This document shows, in pieces, positions 1,245 to 33,109 of a stretch of DNA of 51,509 nucleotides. Made by a program: the position numbers and the translations under genes. This stretch comes from Pseudomonadota bacterium. GTDB taxonomy: Bacteria; Bdellovibrionota; Bdellovibrionia; Bdellovibrionales; SG-bin7. Each line of letters opens with the position of its first letter. Position 1 is the first letter of the stretch. The stretch is from contig JAWXAY010000060.1 of NCBI GenBank assembly GCA_034439715.1, positions 1 to 51,509 on the forward strand. Reading direction: 5' to 3'. Below the pieces are notes generated by a model, which was not told the DNA's origin, did not search any database, and saw only the letters and a list, made by a program, of their open reading frames with translations.

Positions 1245-3755
1245 ATGACAAAGGGTTTCCAGGAGAGCAATTTGTTGAAATCGCTGATTCTTTTTATTTT
1301 TGTAATTTTCCCCACACTTAGCGGAACACTTGTGGTCGCAGCTCCGGATATTTTCGACGATGTTCGGAGCGAAATAATTAAGGGCAATCGTGAAAAGGCC
1401 ATAGTTCTACTTAAAGAGGGGACTGGCAAAGATAAATACGGCGCCGACGACAAGTCACTGGCCTATTTTGCATTGGGCGCCCTGTCTTATCAAGTGGGGA
1501 ATTTACGTGAGTCAGAGCTCCATTTAAAAAATTCATTGAGCGCCGGCACGAGACTTATAGAGTATGCCAATCTTTTCTTGGGCCGATTTTACAAACATGA
1601 AGGTAAATATTCTGAAGCCCATCACCATTTCCGAGAGGTGCGGTTACCTTGGGGTTCGGTAAAGAATGTGGTAGAGGCTCGTTTTGAGTTAGGGTTACTG
1701 GCTGTATTAGAAAGGGATTGGCACCAGGCTCTAATGCATTTTGAGTACCTTTCGCGCCGGATGAAGGGCAGTGATTTTTATCCGCAAATCCTATGGAATT
1801 TGACGCTCGCCGAATTAAAATTGCGTCGTCCGGCTCAAGCCTGTGCCACAGCACGGAAGCTCTACACAAAATATCCCACTCATCCCTTGGTATACAACTG
1901 GGGAATTGATTTAAATTCCGCAAAAATAGATGGAGAGAGCCTGGGCTGTTATGCCACGGCAACCGATGTGGAAATGAGAATTCAACGCCTCCAGTGGTTG
2001 GGTGAGTCCGATCGCGCAAGAAAAGAAATTGAAGGACTTCGAGAAAAGGTCACCGGCGTCAACGAATATCATGTTGATATGATGATGGCCAATTACTTGA
2101 TTGGCGACGGTCTGGTCGATGAAGCCTTTAATCTTTTGGCCCGACATTACGATGAGAGAAAAAATCACCCAAAATATTTAATGATGCTCGCCAAGGCTGC
2201 CAATCGAGCCCAAAAGTTTACTCTTGCCGTGGGGGCCTATTACCGAGTCTATGAGTTGACCCCACGCTCGCGCACTGGGCGTACAGCTTTGTTCCGGTCA
2301 GCATCGCTCAGTTACCAATTTCAAGATTATGACGGCGCCGGAAGAAAGTTTGATCTGATTATAAATAAATTTCCTCGCTCAGGTCTGGTGAGGGATGCGT
2401 ATTGGCATGTGGCGTGGATAAAATATTTAAAAGGGAATTATGACAGCGCTTATGAGGCTTTTACCGATTTGACCAAGCAAGCGCAAAGATCGAAAAGATT
2501 TTGGCGCTCGCTATCCTCAGAAAAAACGAATTACTGGCGTGGCATGTGCCTTTTGCGTCTCGAGCGAAAATTAGAAGCGCGAAAGTTTTTCGAGGCACTC
2601 GATAAAGATAGCAGCTTTGGGTACTATTCTATTTTGGCTAAGTCTCGCTTAATGAGTCTTCCGCAAATAGAAACTGAAGTGAGGGTTCCGGCTCAGGCAG
2701 ATATTATGTCAAATGGTATTGGCGGCGCTCCGGCTCCTGACCTTAGTATTTCCAAGAATGGAGAAGAAGCTGAGCCTGTAGTCGTATCCGAAGAAGAAGA
2801 GAGTGAATCCACTGTCAACACAGAAGAGGCCGAGGACGCCGGCGAGGAGACAGCTACGACCGAGTCTACCTCAGAGAGTGGAACAGAAACTGCCGTCGCT
2901 GATACAGAGCCCGCCGAAGAAGAAAATAAAGAGATGATCTTACCTATGACTTTTGGCAGCCCCGCATTTATACGAAAATATCAAAGGGCTCAGGATCTTA
3001 TTCGTCTGGGGTTTTTTGAGTGGGCACGCTGGGAAATGTATGACCTCGAAGGAAAGGTCCGTAATGCCAAAAACTTGCGAATCCTCATTAATCAATACCA
3101 AGCTTTAGATTCCTTTCATCGTTCGGCTTATGTGGGCTTTGTGGCGCTCGGAGCTGAACGAAGAAAAAAGGGAATCGAAGGCGCCAAGGATCTTTGGGAG
3201 GCCGCTTACCCCATGGCCTATGCCAACTTTGTAAAAACTTCGGCCTCTGAGTTTTCGGTTCCCAGCCACTTTGTTTGGTCAATCATCCGCGCCGAAAGCC
3301 AGTATAAAGCTGATGCCAAGTCGCCGACTGGGGCCGTGGGTCTTATGCAAGTAATGCCCTTTACCGCAAAACAAGTGGCCCGTATTCTAAAGGACGATAA
3401 TGATGTTGTAGATAAATTAGCGGAGCCAAATAATAATATCAGAATCGGAACAAAGTATTTAGCAAGACTCTTTAAAAAATTTTCGAATGTCTTGCCTTTA
3501 GTGGCTGCTGGCTACAATGCGGGCCCACACAGGGTCGACGGTTGGCTTTCTACTTTTGGCTTGCTAGATATGGACGAATTTGTAGAGCATATTCCATTTG
3601 TAGAGACGCGAGATTATGTGAGAAGGGTCGTCAGCAATATGTACGTTTATGACTTGCTATATACGGGACGCGAAAGTCCTATGAAGTGGTTGGTCGAACC
3701 GGTTGGCGTCAAGGGCGACTTGCTCTCTTCTTACCGTGAAGGCTGGGAAGACTAA
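1245..3755 (+). CDS. Soluble lytic murein transglycosylase (Slt70-like) with TPR repeats and acidic linker
   Basis: Signal peptide, TPR-like helices, C-terminal SLT motifs IIRAES, GAVGLMQVMP, AGYNAGP, ETRDYV. Confidence 0.92.
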   Translation: MTKGFQESNLLKSLILFIFVIFPTLSGTLVVAAPDIFDDVRSEIIKGNREKAIVLLKEGTGKDKYGADDKSLAYFALGALSYQVGNLRESELHLKNSLSAGTRLIEYANLFLGRFYKHEGKYSEAHHHFREVRLPWGSVKNVVEARFELGLLAVLERDWHQALMHFEYLSRRMKGSDFYPQILWNLTLAELKLRRPAQACATARKLYTKYPTHPLVYNWGIDLNSAKIDGESLGCYATATDVEMRIQRLQWLGESDRARKEIEGLREKVTGVNEYHVDMMMANYLIGDGLVDEAFNLLARHYDERKNHPKYLMMLAKAANRAQKFTLAVGAYYRVYELTPRSRTGRTALFRSASLSYQFQDYDGAGRKFDLIINKFPRSGLVRDAYWHVAWIKYLKGNYDSAYEAFTDLTKQAQRSKRFWRSLSSEKTNYWRGMCLLRLERKLEARKFFEALDKDSSFGYYSILAKSRLMSLPQIETEVRVPAQADIMSNGIGGAPAPDLSISKNGEEAEPVVVSEEEESESTVNTEEAEDAGEETATTESTSESGTETAVADTEPAEEENKEMILPMTFGSPAFIRKYQRAQDLIRLGFFEWARWEMYDLEGKVRNAKNLRILINQYQALDSFHRSAYVGFVALGAERRKKGIEGAKDLWEAAYPMAYANFVKTSASEFSVPSHFVWSIIRAESQYKADAKSPTGAVGLMQVMPFTAKQVARILKDDNDVVDKLAEPNNNIRIGTKYLARLFKKFSNVLPLVAAGYNAGPHRVDGWLSTFGLLDMDEFVEHIPFVETRDYVRRVVSNMYVYDLLYTGRESPMKWLVEPVGVKGDLLSSYREGWED

Positions 3756-4852
3756 ACGTTAAATTTAAAAAACAGAACATCGCCATCTTTTACGACGTAT
3801 TCTTTGCCCTCAGAGCGATATTTGCCAGCATCCTTTACTAAGGCTTCACTGCCAAACTGAAAAAGATCGTTGCAGTGATAGGTCTCGGCTCGAATAAATC
3901 CCCGTTCAAAATCGCTGTGAATGACGGCTGCGGCTTGAGGTGCTTTAGTTCCCTTTTTTATTGTCCAAGCGCGCACCTCTTTTTTACCCGCTGTAAAATA
4001 GGTTTGCAGGTCTAAAAGTTTGTAAGCCCCTACGATTAAACGATTTAGCCCCGACTCTTTAGCGCCAATGGAATCCAAAAACTCCTTGCGCTCTGCCACA
4101 CCTAGTTCCCCAATTTGGGCCTCTAGCTCGGCGCACATCATGATGGCTATATTATTTTCTTTTTTTGCATATTCAAAAACGACTTCTGTCCATTTGTTTC
4201 CACCAGTTTGATAATCATCTTCTTTAACATTGCAGGCATAGAGCACAGGCTTTGACGTCAAAAGTTGTAGCTCTTTATATATTTTTTCTTCAAGTTCTTC
4301 CGGGACAACCGATCGCGCCGGATGGCCGGCCTTTAGGGCTTCAAATACTTTTGTAACAATCGAATACTCGAGTTTTAACCCTTTGTCGGCGGTCATTTTG
4401 GCAACTTTTTCAATTTTTTTGTGGCGTTTTTCGATAATATCGAGATCGCATAACATGAGCTCAGTATTGACGACCTCGATATCACGAAGTGGGTCAACTG
4501 AGCCTGACACATGAATGATCTGAGAGTCATCAAAGCAGCGTACGACATGTATAATGGCGTCAGTTTCGCGAATATTTGTTAAAAACTTATTACCTAAACC
4601 CTCGCCTTGGCTGGCGCCAGCGACAAGACCTGCGATGTCCACAAATTCGATAGCCGTGGGAAGCACTTTTTCTGGAATAATAATCTTTTCTATTTTTTCA
4701 AGGCGCTCGTCGGGCACGGTAACGATACCTACGTTAGGATCGATGGTACAAAAAGGAAAGTTGGCAGCTTCGGCCTTACCCAAAGTGAGTGCATTGAACA
4801 GAGTGCTTTTTCCAACGTTAGGTAAACCGACAATGCCACACTTTAATCCCAT
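3752..4852 (-). CDS. ychF: Redox-regulated ATPase YchF (Obg family)
   Basis: GIVGLPNVGKSTLFN, ANFPFCTIDPN, DIAGLV, C-terminal TGS domain ending FKFNV. Confidence 0.98.
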   Translation of the reverse strand: MGLKCGIVGLPNVGKSTLFNALTLGKAEAANFPFCTIDPNVGIVTVPDERLEKIEKIIIPEKVLPTAIEFVDIAGLVAGASQGEGLGNKFLTNIRETDAIIHVVRCFDDSQIIHVSGSVDPLRDIEVVNTELMLCDLDIIEKRHKKIEKVAKMTADKGLKLEYSIVTKVFEALKAGHPARSVVPEELEEKIYKELQLLTSKPVLYACNVKEDDYQTGGNKWTEVVFEYAKKENNIAIMMCAELEAQIGELGVAERKEFLDSIGAKESGLNRLIVGAYKLLDLQTYFTAGKKEVRAWTIKKGTKAPQAAAVIHSDFERGFIRAETYHCNDLFQFGSEALVKDAGKYRSEGKEYVVKDGDVLFFKFNV

Positions 4853-29207: not shown

Positions 29208-30560
29208 TTGCCATTGCTAAATCGGTTGCAAATTGTTGTCTGTTGTCTTTTGTTAACAACAGGTTGTGGAGTTTTTCAAACAAGAAACGCTGCTTCTACT
29301 AGCAATGATGCTGCGGACATCAACCAGCCTAAAGTCGAGGTTAAGGTTGAAGTTAAAGATAGTGAAATAGCCGAAGAGGCGCCTGATCTTCCCAAAGAGA
29401 TGAATCAGTACGTTGTTAATCAAATGGAATATTTCTTAGGTCGTGGCCGCCACCATATGGAAAAATATTTGGCCCGAGCTCCTAGATACATCGAGCTGGT
29501 AAAGCAGACACTGAGAGACGAAGGAGTGCCTGAGGATTTGGTTTACTTAGCTTTGATTGAATCGGGATTCAATAACAATGCAAAGTCGCACGCGAAGGCG
29601 GTCGGATATTGGCAGTTTATTAAAAGTACGGGTCAAAGATATGGCCTAAAGGTGAATGCATTTGTTGATGAAAGACGGGATCCCATTAAATCCACAGTCG
29701 CAGCTGCAAGATATTTAAAAGCCCTTAACAGTCTGTTTGGATCTTGGCACTTAGCCCTTGCCGCCTATAATGTGGGTGAGAATCGAATAAAGAGCCAAGT
29801 CATGCATCATGAAACAAGAGATTTGTGGGAACTCATTCGGTCTGGTCGGTTGCCGAATGAAACCAAACATTATGTGCCCAAATTTATTGCGGCTAGAATA
29901 ATTGCTAAACACCCCGAGCGATATGGACTCGATAAACTACCATTTGAAGATGCACTTAAGTTTGAAATGGTTCCCGTGGGAAGGCCAATTAGTTTAAGGC
30001 GACTGGCTGACAATTTAGGGGTGGACTATGCTCAGATTAAATTATTGAACCCCATGTTTAAATCCGATTATGTACCCGTTGATAACAATGAAAAGGTATC
30101 TGTTCGGGTGCCCGCCGATAAAATTGCGATATCCGCGTTAGCGATAGTAAAGAGCCAAGTGGTCGCGCAAAGACAAGTCGCGTACCTTGACGAAGACCAT
30201 GTTTATTACCGAGTAAAACGTGGTGATAATCTGAGCCTAATTGCTTCTAGATTCGGAACAAGTATTTCGCGTTTGCGCTCTCTAAATGATTTAGGTTCAC
30301 GGTCTCGTCTCGCCGTAGGTGCAAAACTAAAAGTTCCTTCTCAAGAAATTAGAAAGCTGAAGGCCTATCGCAGTACGGAGAAAAGAAGTGCGGCACCTAT
30401 AATGTCGGCAAAGAGTAAGGTGCATGTTGTAAGACGTGGGGATACTTTGATTGATATTTCCAAAAAATACGGCGTAACTTTAGCACAAATTCGTCGCGAG
30501 AATAATTTAAATAACCGCACTCGAATTCTTGTCGGTGCATCAATTGCTATTCCTGATTAA
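29208..30560 (+). CDS. mltD: MltD-like lytic transglycosylase with two LysM domains
   Basis: LIESG, GYWQF, DERRDP, AAYNVG, ETKHYVPK; LysM repeats YRVKRGDNL and HVVRRGDTL. Confidence 0.9.
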   Translation: MPLLNRLQIVVCCLLLTTGCGVFQTRNAASTSNDAADINQPKVEVKVEVKDSEIAEEAPDLPKEMNQYVVNQMEYFLGRGRHHMEKYLARAPRYIELVKQTLRDEGVPEDLVYLALIESGFNNNAKSHAKAVGYWQFIKSTGQRYGLKVNAFVDERRDPIKSTVAAARYLKALNSLFGSWHLALAAYNVGENRIKSQVMHHETRDLWELIRSGRLPNETKHYVPKFIAARIIAKHPERYGLDKLPFEDALKFEMVPVGRPISLRRLADNLGVDYAQIKLLNPMFKSDYVPVDNNEKVSVRVPADKIAISALAIVKSQVVAQRQVAYLDEDHVYYRVKRGDNLSLIASRFGTSISRLRSLNDLGSRSRLAVGAKLKVPSQEIRKLKAYRSTEKRSAAPIMSAKSKVHVVRRGDTLIDISKKYGVTLAQIRRENNLNNRTRILVGASIAIPD

Positions 30561-30633: not shown

Positions 30634-31380
30634 ATGGCAAAAATAATTTCAATCTTAGCGTCGGTCATGACATTTGGTTTAAGTGCGACAACAGCGCTGG
30701 CCTACGGTGGACCTTTGACGGAGCAACAGAAAAAAGACTTCTTAGGTGTGTTTAAATCTGTTGGCCGGGTTGAACGCCTTTATAGCGATGCTCAAGGCAG
30801 AAAAACGCCAAAATCTGATGAGGTTTACGAGAAAATGTATACCCTTGTTCAGCAGGCTTGCCAATTTATAGAAAACAAATCTGAAAAAGACTCTACTCTT
30901 ACAGTCACATTAGAATCCACTGAAATAGGTTGCCCAGTTGTCATGAAGTCGATCGAACAGGTTAAAAACTTGGGCGATGGCGTGAGTGCTATCGCCAATA
31001 AAGTGGTGTTTCAAGCTGGCGATTTAATGAAGGCTATAAATGACGTTATTGAAACGCAAGACCTCTTACACGGCAAAATTATCACGACAAAAAATGAAGA
31101 AGGCGGCGTAATAACTTCAGATGAGAAAAGTGAAGGTTTCGTAGTGAGCCAACTACATGGCAAATCTGACTACACGACTCGATCGGTTTCTAGCAGTGAG
31201 TACGTGGGTAATTTCGAGCCTACCAAAATTAATGGCGAATGGACTCTCAATACTAAGTTGGGCGAAATCAATGTTGAAATGAAAATCACCTACAAACTTG
31301 AAGATGGAGTTTTTACCAAAGAGATTTTTCTCAATGGAGAAAAAATTGAGATAGGAACCGAGTTAGAAAAGTCTTTTTAG
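30634..31380 (+). CDS. Secreted hypothetical protein
   Basis: SD GGGAG, signal peptide ending ALA, Cys pair, beta-rich C-terminal half. Confidence 0.7.
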   Translation: MAKIISILASVMTFGLSATTALAYGGPLTEQQKKDFLGVFKSVGRVERLYSDAQGRKTPKSDEVYEKMYTLVQQACQFIENKSEKDSTLTVTLESTEIGCPVVMKSIEQVKNLGDGVSAIANKVVFQAGDLMKAINDVIETQDLLHGKIITTKNEEGGVITSDEKSEGFVVSQLHGKSDYTTRSVSSSEYVGNFEPTKINGEWTLNTKLGEINVEMKITYKLEDGVFTKEIFLNGEKIEIGTELEKSF

Positions 31381-31390
31381 AATAAAAGCC

Positions 31391-31443
31391 AAAAAAGAAG
31401 GGCATCTAAGTCACTCAATAATTAAAGTGGCCTAGACACCCTT
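31391..31443 (-). terminator. Intrinsic terminator of the riboswitch transcript
   Basis: AAGGGUGUCUAGGCCACU / AGUGACUUAGAUGCCCUU stem followed by CUUUUUU; several G-U pairs form only on the minus strand. Confidence 0.8.
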
Positions 31444-31472
31444 GAGATAAGATACAGAAATGAAGTATCCAT
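31422..31472 (-). CDS. Candidate 16-aa riboswitch-regulated micropeptide MDTSFLYLISRVSRPL
   Basis: SD GGGAGGG 9 nt upstream of ATG; this SD is complementary to the riboswitch 5' strand. Confidence 0.5.
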   Translation of the reverse strand: MDTSFLYLISRVSRPL

Positions 31473-31502
31473 AAGTTTTTTCCCTCCCTTTGAAGTTTTT
31501 AA

Positions 31503-31605
31503 TTCCTTTGGTAGCCTGGCAGGCAATAGCCAAAATTAAATTGGCCTTAGCCCCACTCGCTTTGCGCCCTACAGTTTCCTAGTAGTTTGCCCTTTGACAA
31601 AGGAA
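31503..31605 (-). ncRNA. Cyclic di-GMP-I (GEMM-I) riboswitch aptamer
   Basis: AAAGGGCAAA-CUACUAG-GAAA-CUGUAG-GGCGCAAAGC...GGCUAAG...CUAUUGCC...GGCUACC; GAAA tetraloop and receptor; P1 UUCCUUU/AAAGGAA. Confidence 0.9.
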
Positions 31606-31619
31606 GGAAAGTTATTCAT
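31569..31619 (-). CDS. Candidate 16-aa uORF MNNFPSFVKGQTTRKL overlapping the 5' half of the aptamer
   Basis: Perfect SD AAGGAGG (31629-31635) 9 nt upstream of ATG; TAG stop inside P2. Confidence 0.35.
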   Translation of the reverse strand: MNNFPSFVKGQTTRKL

Positions 31620-31681
31620 CCGATAAAACCTCCTTGGTAAGATCGAGTTAACTGGTAATTTAAGCTATTTTACTAGCCCAG

Positions 31682-31777
31682 CTACTCTGGAGGTGGATCT
31701 AGATTCCGTTCTTTTGGGATGGTTTGATGACAGAGCCGGCTCCATAGCTCCCACCGTTTTTCGCTAAATACGTCCAT
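31682..31777 (-). CDS. Candidate leaderless 31-aa ORF MDVFSEKRWELWSRLCHQTIPKERNLDPPPE
   Basis: TAGACT-N16-TAGACT, then 6 nt, then ATG: same geometry as other leaderless genes in the window. Confidence 0.35.
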   Translation of the reverse strand: MDVFSEKRWELWSRLCHQTIPKERNLDPPPE

Positions 31778-31838
31778 GAATTAAGTCTACTGCATTGCGT
31801 TAAAAAGTCTAGCTGATTATTTTAAATGCCATGATAAT

Positions 31839-32681
31839 TCAATGGCTTGTATCAGTTTGAGTTGTAGCGGTATGGGACTTAGTAAGCATATTCGCTAGTT
31901 CTATAAATTTGTCGGCTGTCTCATCTTGAGGAAAAGCATCTAAAACTGAAATACCAATTTCAGCACTTTTGGCGAGATTTTGCGTGAAAGGAATTTGTAA
32001 AATTCTCGTCATTTTATTTTGCGCAATATAAAAATCGAGTTCCCCTCGTGGAAACAATTCTGCTTTCTCACCATTAGGTAATTTAAAGTAACTCATGTTT
32101 TCGACGACGCCTAATACAGGAATATTTAATTTTCCGAACATGTCCAATGCTTTCTTACAATCCGCGAAGGCAATATTTTGTGGAGTAGTGACGGCGATTC
32201 CCAAATGAATTTGTGTTTTTTGGGCCAGCGTAAGTGGGACATCTCCGGTGCCAGGCGGTAAATCTATTATTAGATAATCGAGGTCACCCCACACCACATC
32301 TCTTAAAAACTGCTCAAGCGCTTTAAATAGCATGGGCCCACGCCAAACGACTGCCGTTTCTTCAGGAACAAGAAATCCGAGGCTCATCAACTTAACGCCG
32401 CTACGTTCAATCGGAATTATTTTATTGTTTTCGTCAACTAGTGCCTTTTGATTTATGGCGCCAAACAATCGGGGAATGCTGGGGCCATAAATGTCAGAAT
32501 CAAGTAAGCCGACACGAAGTCCCAGTTTAGCAATTGCGACGGCAAGGTTTGCCGAAACCGTACTTTTGCCGACCCCGCCTTTGCCGGACCCTACGGCTAT
32601 TATTTTGGCGATACCAGGGATGGGACCTTGTTTATTAAATGTATTAGCTGAGGTATTGGCTGTGGGATTAGCAGGTGACAT
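31839..32681 (-). CDS. mrp: Mrp/ApbC/NBP35 family ATPase; start moved to ATG 32681 behind SD GGAG
   Basis: GSGKGGVGKST, DSDIYGPSIP, VWRGPM, DLPPGTGD, VVENMS. Confidence 0.92.
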   Translation of the reverse strand: MSPANPTANTSANTFNKQGPIPGIAKIIAVGSGKGGVGKSTVSANLAVAIAKLGLRVGLLDSDIYGPSIPRLFGAINQKALVDENNKIIPIERSGVKLMSLGFLVPEETAVVWRGPMLFKALEQFLRDVVWGDLDYLIIDLPPGTGDVPLTLAQKTQIHLGIAVTTPQNIAFADCKKALDMFGKLNIPVLGVVENMSYFKLPNGEKAELFPRGELDFYIAQNKMTRILQIPFTQNLAKSAEIGISVLDAFPQDETADKFIELANMLTKSHTATTQTDTSH

Positions 32682-32710
32682 TTTAGGGGTCTCCAAGAAT
32701 AATAAAAACA

Positions 32711-33109
32711 ATGGATCCGAAACATTACATAATGCTCAATGGGCTAATTGTCATCCTTCTCATAGCGTCTATTTTATTTTTACGGCGAGGCAATAGCGAT
32801 TCGACCCGTTTAAACCTCAGAAAATCGTCAGACCGTATTCCACAAGCCACTGGCGGTGAGGGGCCGCTGAGCGGTCTAAACAATATGTCGGAAAATGGAG
32901 ACAAGGCGGATGGAGCCCGAAGTCTCAATGTGGTATTTCAATTTGAGGGGAATTGGTACGACGCTTTCGAAATACTAGATATACCTGCCGGTACTTCGTT
33001 AGCCCAGGCGCGAGAGAGGTTTAATGAGCTTTTAAAGTCAGTCAGTACCTCTCGCCATGAATTAATTAAAGAGGCCATTAAGGCCATCGCCGCCAGCGTC
33101 TCAAAATAA
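32711..33109 (+). CDS. Membrane-anchored hypothetical protein with J-domain-like C-terminus
   Basis: N-terminal TM; DAFEILDIPAGTSLAQARERF resembles J-domain helices I-II; no HPD. Confidence 0.6.
   Translation: MDPKHYIMLNGLIVILLIASILFLRRGNSDSTRLNLRKSSDRIPQATGGEGPLSGLNNMSENGDKADGARSLNVVFQFEGNWYDAFEILDIPAGTSLAQARERFNELLKSVSTSRHELIKEAIKAIAASVSK

What the first reader, a model, noticed from the sequence alone, without database searches (positions are those of the whole stretch)
31422..31610. c-di-GMP-I riboswitch wired as a translational ON switch for a hidden 16-aa peptide
Seen: a full GEMM-I aptamer on the minus strand, where the next annotated gene is convergent, so it looks like an orphan. 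Its 5' strand UUUCCUUCCUUUG (31598-31610) has two mutually exclusive partners. One is the P1 3' strand CAAAGGAA (31503-31510). The other is CAAAGGGAGGGAA (31480-31492), giving 13 contiguous bp (2 G-U) that bury the SD of the ORF MDTSFLYLISRVSRPL. Established: ligand binding stabilises P1 in GEMM-I riboswitches, and c-di-GMP controls lifestyle switching in Bdellovibrio. Inference: c-di-GMP frees the SD and turns on a micropeptide that gene callers miss.
Basis: partly seen in the sequence, partly recalled or inferred. Interest (0 to 1): 0.88.

Follow-up and report, generated by a model that had tools for sequence, protein, structure and literature searches.

The report
merRNA relative with two micro-ORFs
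This is the counterpart, in an uncultured relative of the predatory bacterium Bdellovibrio, of an abundant stand-alone RNA that senses the signal c-di-GMP; it appears to carry one tiny gene in front of the sensor and a second tiny reading frame behind it whose start the sensor probably hides and exposes.

Summary
Rfam finds c-di-GMP-I at 31507-31601(-), and the 13-bp rival helix, SD, ATG and 16-codon ORF are as described. The locus is the orthologue of B. bacteriovorus merRNA: about one copy per genome in 101 of 151 genomes of the order, usually beside apbC or mltD. The rival helix out-competes P1 in 103 of 103 loci and co-varies. An AUG under or just behind it occurs in 60 of 102 loci (58 of 62 in four families, 2 of 40 in five others). 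The 3' peptide is poorly conserved (only MDTS[FL] in the family; reading frame drifts elsewhere), and all 59 scored ORFs end at, in or beyond the terminator. So a translational ON switch is likely here, but its output is more probably the act of translation into the terminator than the peptide. Folding shows only partial SD release; nothing is tested at the bench. The scan reported this class before on other DNA.

The parts
31784..31811 (-). Promoter-like pair of hexamers (TAGACT, 16 nt, TAGACT); inferred start of a ~386-nt RNA at about 31777
   Evidence: Read; similar hexamers 6-7 nt before the ATG in all 4 family loci. The consensus scan found no site here.
31682..31777 (-). Upstream micro-ORF, 31 aa, probably leaderless, ending KERNLDPPPE*
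   Evidence: homologues with SD-led starts across the order; pattern search 25 hits against 0 for the control
31628..31635 (-). SD-like AAGGAGGU at the tip of a hairpin, mostly without a start codon behind it; role unresolved
   Evidence: GGAGG here in 68 of 103 loci, control 0; pairing tests inconclusive
31598..31610 (-). P1 5' strand, doubling as anti-SD
31507..31601 (-). c-di-GMP-I (GEMM-I) aptamer, G at position 20
   Evidence: 56.9 bits, full model
31503..31510 (-). P1 3' strand (ligand-bound partner)
31480..31492 (-). Rival strand containing the SD GGGAGGG (31488-31482); ligand-free partner
31422..31472 (-). Downstream micro-ORF, 16 aa; stop codon in the terminator loop
31457..31466 (-). 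RNA motif ACUUCAUUUC, kept across families in different reading frames
31390..31443 (-). Intrinsic terminator hairpin and U run
   Evidence: -24.4 kcal/mol, 0 of 200 shuffles as stable; terminators at 99 of 103 loci
31839..32711 (-). apbC/Mrp-type P-loop NTPase gene, conserved upstream neighbour
   Evidence: Pfam PF10609; upstream on the same strand in 56 of 103 loci
29208..30560 (+). MltD-like lytic transglycosylase (SLT + LysM), usual convergent downstream neighbour
   Evidence: downstream and convergent in 37 of 103 loci

Best explanation
The element is the 3' half of the merRNA orthologue, a ~386-nt stand-alone RNA with two micro-ORFs (shown by comparison). The front ORF makes a conserved ...DPPPE peptide (coding shown by comparison, translation inferred). 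Without c-di-GMP the P1 5' strand pairs with the SD strand; ligand stabilises P1 (established for the family) and releases it (inferred). In this lineage a ribosome then loads on the 16-codon ORF and runs into the terminator, stopping in its loop. The output is most likely that act of translation, which opens the 3' hairpin and so changes the RNA's fate (decay or read-through towards the convergent gene), rather than the peptide's sequence (inferred). About 0.65 that translation of this ORF is ligand-gated; about 0.4 for the whole chain.
For: Orthology: single copy in 99 of the 101 genomes with a match, two copies in 2; conserved neighbours; named B. bacteriovorus records L160, L169, L176 have the same layout and span 448-453 nt from -10 box to U run against 445 nt published (PMC3627812, passages). 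Helix: stronger than P1 in 103 of 103 loci; own partners pair better than swapped ones across 39 genera (2 and 1 of 10,000 permutations; 47 and 24 within families). AUG at SD distance in 33 loci (14.8 expected) and inside the helix in 27 more; it is kept in many loci where it is not part of a GGA motif. Among 20 distinct SD+AUG tails the frame to the RNA motif splits 10/8/2. All 59 scored ORFs end within 12 nt of (26), inside (14) or past (19) the terminator.
Against: No AUG in 0 of 23 loci of one family and 11 of 13 of another, and none conserved in 14 loci of a sister group with the same helix, so gating of translation is not universal. In family f10 the frame is kept in 45 of 55 tails (8 of 11 distinct lengths), which favours a real peptide there. 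Folding gives only partial SD release (gain above 0.3 in 26 of 101 loci; window 0.03 to 0.26). The short distance from AUG to terminator makes overlap likely anyway, and 18 of 67 terminators after ordinary genes also lie within 12 nt of the stop (crude count). No ribosome or ligand data.
Confidence: 0.4

Rival explanations
1. One reading: c-di-GMP turns on the downstream ORF and the short peptide itself is the effector.
For: SD and ATG in 4 of 4 family loci, the 12- and 16-codon forms differ by a whole number of codons, MDTS[FL] is kept with a synonymous Asp change; f10 peptides end DWFHSP in frame in 45 of 55 tails. Precedent for small proteins behind c-di-GMP-I riboswitches in C. difficile (PMC13724677, abstract and section 7).
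Against: No common peptide across families; three frames used in the SD+AUG layout; 19 of 59 ORFs have no stop before the U run; the window's last 11 residues are unique and the last 7 are dictated by the terminator stem.
Confidence: 0.2
2. Sponge or decoy: the abundant RNA stores c-di-GMP (published proposal) and/or exposes GGA motifs to CsrA when ligand frees the purine strand; the AUG is incidental.
For: merRNA is extremely abundant in attack phase and was proposed as a reservoir (PMC3627812, passages). The released strand is GGA-rich in lineages without AUG; GGAGG without a start codon upstream in 57 of 68 loci that have it; CsrA in 140 of 151 genomes including this one. CsrA's GGA preference is recalled, not from a call.
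Against: A pure sink needs no conserved helix that breaks the aptamer. AUG is kept without GGA in many loci. The upstream GGA is predicted unpaired in only 21 of 68 loci. CsrA is nearly universal, so co-occurrence says nothing.
Confidence: 0.2
3. 3' riboswitch that sets the stability of the upstream micro-ORF message directly by folding, as Vc2 does for its upstream sRNAs, without translation of the 3' ORF.
For: Precedent in V. cholerae (bioRxiv 10.1101/617340, abstract). The upstream ORF is the best-conserved coding part and persists at the same locus without aptamer.
Against: In 26 loci of family f2, 23 lack the upstream peptide yet keep aptamer and helix, most with SD+AUG. The RNA has its own terminator, unlike the Vc2 sRNAs.
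Confidence: 0.12
4. Ligand-controlled trans-acting sRNA: the UUCAU(U)CC motif before the terminator is a seed against SD/AUG regions of other mRNAs.
For: The motif is kept regardless of frame in 77 of 155 distinct tails and is complementary to start regions.
Against: No target search was run; absent from f12; no co-variation with the RNA's own upstream SD-like motif.
Confidence: 0.08

Closest known systems
merRNA of Bdellovibrio bacteriovorus HD100 (Karunker et al. 2013, PMC3627812; passages read)
   Same: Stand-alone RNA with one c-di-GMP-I aptamer and own terminator; same gene neighbourhood and layout as named B. bacteriovorus records.
   Different: Shorter (~386 nt), upstream ORF leaderless and of the LDPPPE type, SD rather than AUG buried. 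The paper found no conserved ORF downstream and no conservation outside the Bdellovibrio lineage; here the element is in 39 of 69 genera of the order and carries two micro-ORFs.
c-di-GMP-I (GEMM-I) riboswitches, Rfam RF01051
   Same: Full-length match above the gathering score; G at position 20.
   Different: No conventional downstream gene; the platform is a rival helix over a micro-ORF start followed by a terminator.
C. difficile Cdi1_6 to Cdi1_11 small-protein genes (PMC13724677; abstract and section 7 read)
   Same: Apparently orphan c-di-GMP-I riboswitches that control unannotated small ORFs.
   Different: There 58-aa conserved membrane proteins under transcriptional OFF control; here 7-22-codon ORFs, poorly conserved, under predicted translational ON control.
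Vibrio cholerae Vc2 upstream sRNAs (bioRxiv 10.1101/617340; abstract read)
   Same: Aptamer near the 3' end of a small RNA, possibly setting its stability.
   Different: Vc2 lies in the leader of tfoY and the sRNA ends come from protection, not a terminator; no micro-ORFs described in the abstract.
Proline-rich leader peptides such as MgtL (recalled, no call)
   Same: Short ORF with a proline run in front of a regulatory RNA; stop codon in a hairpin.
   Different: No long gene follows, and the ORF persists alone before a terminator in aptamer-less relatives.

Membership tests
c-di-GMP-I riboswitch (RF01051) | Covariance-model match above the gathering score over the whole model | tested here: met
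   56.9 bits against 35, positions 1-87
c-di-GMP-I riboswitch (RF01051) | G rather than A at position 20 (A20 gives cGAMP selectivity, PMC6456294 passages) | tested here: met
   Alignment; Vc2 numbering is recalled
c-di-GMP-I riboswitch (RF01051) | Binds c-di-GMP and changes expression | not testable with these tools
   Needs in-line probing and a reporter
merRNA | Single stand-alone aptamer RNA at the locus orthologous to that of B. bacteriovorus | tested here: met
   One match in the genome; apbC upstream and mltD downstream; named B. bacteriovorus records with the same layout, 448-453 nt
merRNA | Massive attack-phase-specific expression | tested here: inconclusive
   RNA-library contigs of relatives cover 31433-31699 in 3 of 4 runs laid; contigs show neither level nor strand, and the runs were found with this stretch
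Translational ON riboswitch | Helix exclusive with P1 that buries SD or start codon, conserved with co-variation | tested here: met
Translational ON riboswitch | Start region open when P1 forms | tested here: inconclusive
   SD unpaired 0.03 to 0.26, AUG 0.50 to 0.37; median 0.11 to 0.38 over 101 loci
Translational ON riboswitch | Conserved protein product downstream | tested here: not met
   Only MDTS[FL] in the family; frames drift; 42 of 102 loci without AUG
CsrA/Rsm-sequestering sRNA | Many GGA motifs in hairpin loops | tested here: inconclusive
   One conserved upstream GGA, unpaired in 21 of 68 loci; no full GGA count against background was made
CsrA/Rsm-sequestering sRNA | CsrA present in the genome | tested here: met
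   PF02599 in G000 and 140 of 151 genomes; not discriminating

The most novel reading that the evidence does not exclude
merRNA is not non-coding but a two-ORF messenger: a conserved polyproline micropeptide in front, and behind the aptamer a c-di-GMP-gated ORF whose ribosome opens the RNA's own terminator (in some lineages running off the end without a stop), so that the second messenger triggers destruction or read-through of one of the most abundant RNAs of the hunting cell.
Probability: 0.25. Interest if true: 0.85.

Novelty: new variant of a known kind. Interest (0 to 1): 0.62.

Why it matters
The function of merRNA, reported as rivalling the whole mRNA pool in attack-phase Bdellovibrio, was left as a speculation in the 2013 paper, which found no conserved ORF. 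A conserved switch helix, a gated start codon and a conserved upstream peptide give exact point mutations to test in a culturable predator. Library searches for merRNA with Bdellovibrio (4 papers), the full name (1 paper) and Bdellovibrio with ribosome profiling and small ORFs (0 papers) showed no description of these ORFs in the listings and passages read; subscription journals are mostly not held.

Tried and rejected
Promoter/terminator consensus scan found nothing in 31200-31950. CsrA co-occurrence is uninformative. Pairing of the upstream GGAGG with the free 5' part of the P1 strand (pseudoknot) or with the tail: compatible for the first, but no co-variation signal for either (2968-4141 and 2589-4188 of 5000 permutations). 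An ORF from the upstream SD into the aptamer: start codon in only 11 of 68 loci. Sense read-through to a downstream gene as the general output: the nearest long ORF is convergent in 63, same-strand in 34, none in 6 of 103 loci. My first terminator caller misfired in about ten loci; the second found 99 of 103, and two family loci were set by hand. The metagenome scan gave 3 loci and no new sequence type. The 31-aa peptide is not in the protein collection and matches no NCBIfam family. An ApbC tree (38 of 57 hits, at most two per genus) left the order of families open, so gain or loss of the AUG cannot be dated. The proteomics paper PMC12546842 (passages) says small proteins were under-detected and does not test these ORFs.

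Full report
Observation. Rfam gives one match in the window, c-di-GMP-I at 31507-31601 on the minus strand, 56.9 bits over the whole model, and one in the genome. The strand 31610-31598 can pair with 31510-31503 (P1, 8 bp) or with 31492-31480 (13 bp); the latter is in the predicted structure and such a partner occurs in 2 of 59,098 genome windows and 0 of 20,000 shuffles. The ORF 31472-31422 is MDTSFLYLISRVSRPL. Its stop lies in the loop of a strong terminator, 31443-31390.

What it is. The aptamer is present in 101 of 151 genomes of the order, once in 99 and twice in 2; I fetched all 103 loci. ApbC lies upstream on the same strand in 56 loci (27 genera) and MltD downstream and convergent in 37 (25 genera), within the 1.5-2 kb flanks held. 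A scan of named genomes for the P1-aptamer pattern stopped at 120 rows; 68 of the 80 titles shown name Bdellovibrionota taxa. Three named B. bacteriovorus records have the same layout and measure 448-453 nt from an assumed start 7 nt after the -10 box to the U run. Karunker et al. (PMC3627812, passages; supplements not read, and their structure figure and promoter table may bear on the start site) describe merRNA as a 445-nt, attack-phase RNA with a c-di-GMP riboswitch, found no conserved ORF downstream, and proposed a ligand reservoir. I conclude that the window holds the merRNA orthologue, about 386 nt (31777-31392; start inferred). Contigs from RNA libraries of three studies, 90-96% alike, cover 31433-31699 and do not bridge into the neighbours; in X13 none of 9 differences falls in 31433-31521, and the SD-ATG spacer is one base shorter in X13 and X18. 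These runs were found with this stretch and contigs show no level or strand, so this is a weak hint only.

The switch helix. A downstream purine strand pairs with the P1 5' strand more stably than P1's own 3' strand in 103 of 103 loci (medians -13.4 and -7.1 kcal/mol; two terminators set by hand). The better test swaps partners: with one locus per genus (39), own pairs average -13.8 against -12.6 for swapped pairs (2 of 10,000 permutations; 47 within families; 1 and 24 with a second pick). Kin are not independent, so this overstates. In the four family loci the helix keeps 12-13 contiguous pairs with one double change and several single ones. Forcing P1 costs 1.7 kcal/mol in the full RNA and a median 6.4 over 101 loci, within reach of a ligand bound at about 1 nM (figure quoted). 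But the model frees the SD only partly (0.03 to 0.26) and not the AUG.

The downstream ORF. An AUG follows the purine strand at SD distance in 33 of 102 scored loci (14.8 expected from shuffles) and lies inside the strand in 27; 42 have none (one locus was not scored). The split is by lineage: f1 4 of 4, f2 22 of 26, f4 2 of 2, f10 30 of 30, against f5 2 of 13, f12 0 of 23, and 0 of 4 in three small families. Fourteen loci from another group of the phylum show the same helix and terminator with no shared ORF, at another locus. The peptides differ: MDTSF.. (f1), MDITPIF.. (f2), MEG..DWFHSP (f10). Of 155 distinct tails (from 212, handles and named records pooled), 77 carry the motif UUCAUUCCC or its f1 form; among the 20 with SD then AUG the motif is read in three frames (10, 8, 2), whereas among the 55 with AUG in the helix one frame holds in 45. 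All 59 scored ORFs end within 12 nt of the stem (26), inside it (14) or beyond the start of the U run (19). The start site and the run into the terminator are kept; the peptide, outside f10, is not.

The upstream ORF. A motif-free search finds SD-led ORFs of 6-35 codons upstream in 71 of 103 loci, against 14 on the other strand. They are homologous..LDPPP[EK] in f5, f12, f3 and ..D[KE][SP]PK or DDELK in f10. In 36 distinct codon strings of the DPPx[EK] type (40 loci, 23 genera) third positions of the first two proline codons carry about 1.8 bits of entropy and first and second positions under 0.4 (selection was by peptide, so only the free third position is independent evidence). The pattern for LDPPP[EK]-stop hits 25 places in 23 of 151 genomes, the reversed control none; 19 are at aptamer loci. 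Of the other six, five were scanned and have no Rfam aptamer; four have SD, start and terminator by eye and three of these lie beside apbC or mltD. In the window the ORF is 31777-31682; in all four family loci it starts 6-7 nt after a -10-like hexamer, has no SD, and keeps frame over 28, 30, 30 and 31 codons, so it is probably leaderless. That Asp-Pro-Pro-Pro stalls ribosomes without EF-P is recalled; variants such as DPPFE and DPAPE show the run is not strict.

How it most likely works. Shown by comparison: one RNA with upstream micro-ORF, aptamer, rival helix, downstream start and terminator. Established for the family: ligand stabilises P1. Inferred: ligand releases the SD, a ribosome loads, and it reaches the terminator, altering the RNA's end. 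Whether this causes decay or read-through cannot be told; a crude count of ordinary genes (18 of 67 terminators within 12 nt of the stop) does not settle whether ribosomes trail the polymerase in this organism. Rivals are the peptide as effector (best case f10), a ligand or CsrA sponge, Vc2-like stability control and a trans-acting seed.

Earlier notes of the scan (looked up after the analyses above) report the same class on other DNA: a gated micro-ORF with its stop at the terminator, and an upstream 14-codon ORF with a pseudoknot. My data agree on the ORFs; my test of a pseudoknot was inconclusive. They are not independent support.

Verdict. Real, conserved, and an advance on the published picture of merRNA as non-coding, but the specific claim of a functional 16-aa peptide is weak and no step is shown at the bench. 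New variant of a known kind; interest 0.62.

Noticed in passing
L004 and L009, 280 to 90 nt upstream of the aptamer: Three tandem copies of the upstream micro-ORF, ending LDPPPE, LDPPPE and LFPPPI.
   Followed up: partly
L085 and L095: Two genomes of one genus carry two near-identical copies of the riboswitch unit about 1 kb apart.
   Followed up: no
L116, about 60-100 nt after the micro-ORF stop: Fragments resembling the aptamer (ACGCAAAGC) before the terminator, possibly a decayed remnant; seen by eye, no Rfam match.
   Followed up: no
L249-L261, L263: A sister group of the phylum has one c-di-GMP-I copy with the same rival helix plus a conserved upstream GAAGAGG that is complementary to a tail CCUCUUC, and no shared ORF.
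   Followed up: partly
window 31635-31617: All four family loci have ATG or GTG 9-11 nt after the upstream SD-like motif, which would send a ribosome into P1; the frames differ between loci.
   Followed up: partly
G000 contigs C23 and C82: Two clearly different 16S rRNA 3' ends in the assembly; one may be foreign.
   Followed up: no
window 30634-31380: 248-aa secreted-looking protein without Pfam or NCBIfam family, found at 1 of 103 loci: a lineage-specific insertion between mltD and the RNA.
   Followed up: partly
f2 loci such as L003, L008, L012: Short form of the RNA without upstream ORF; the downstream ORF is proline-rich and has no stop before the U run.
   Followed up: partly
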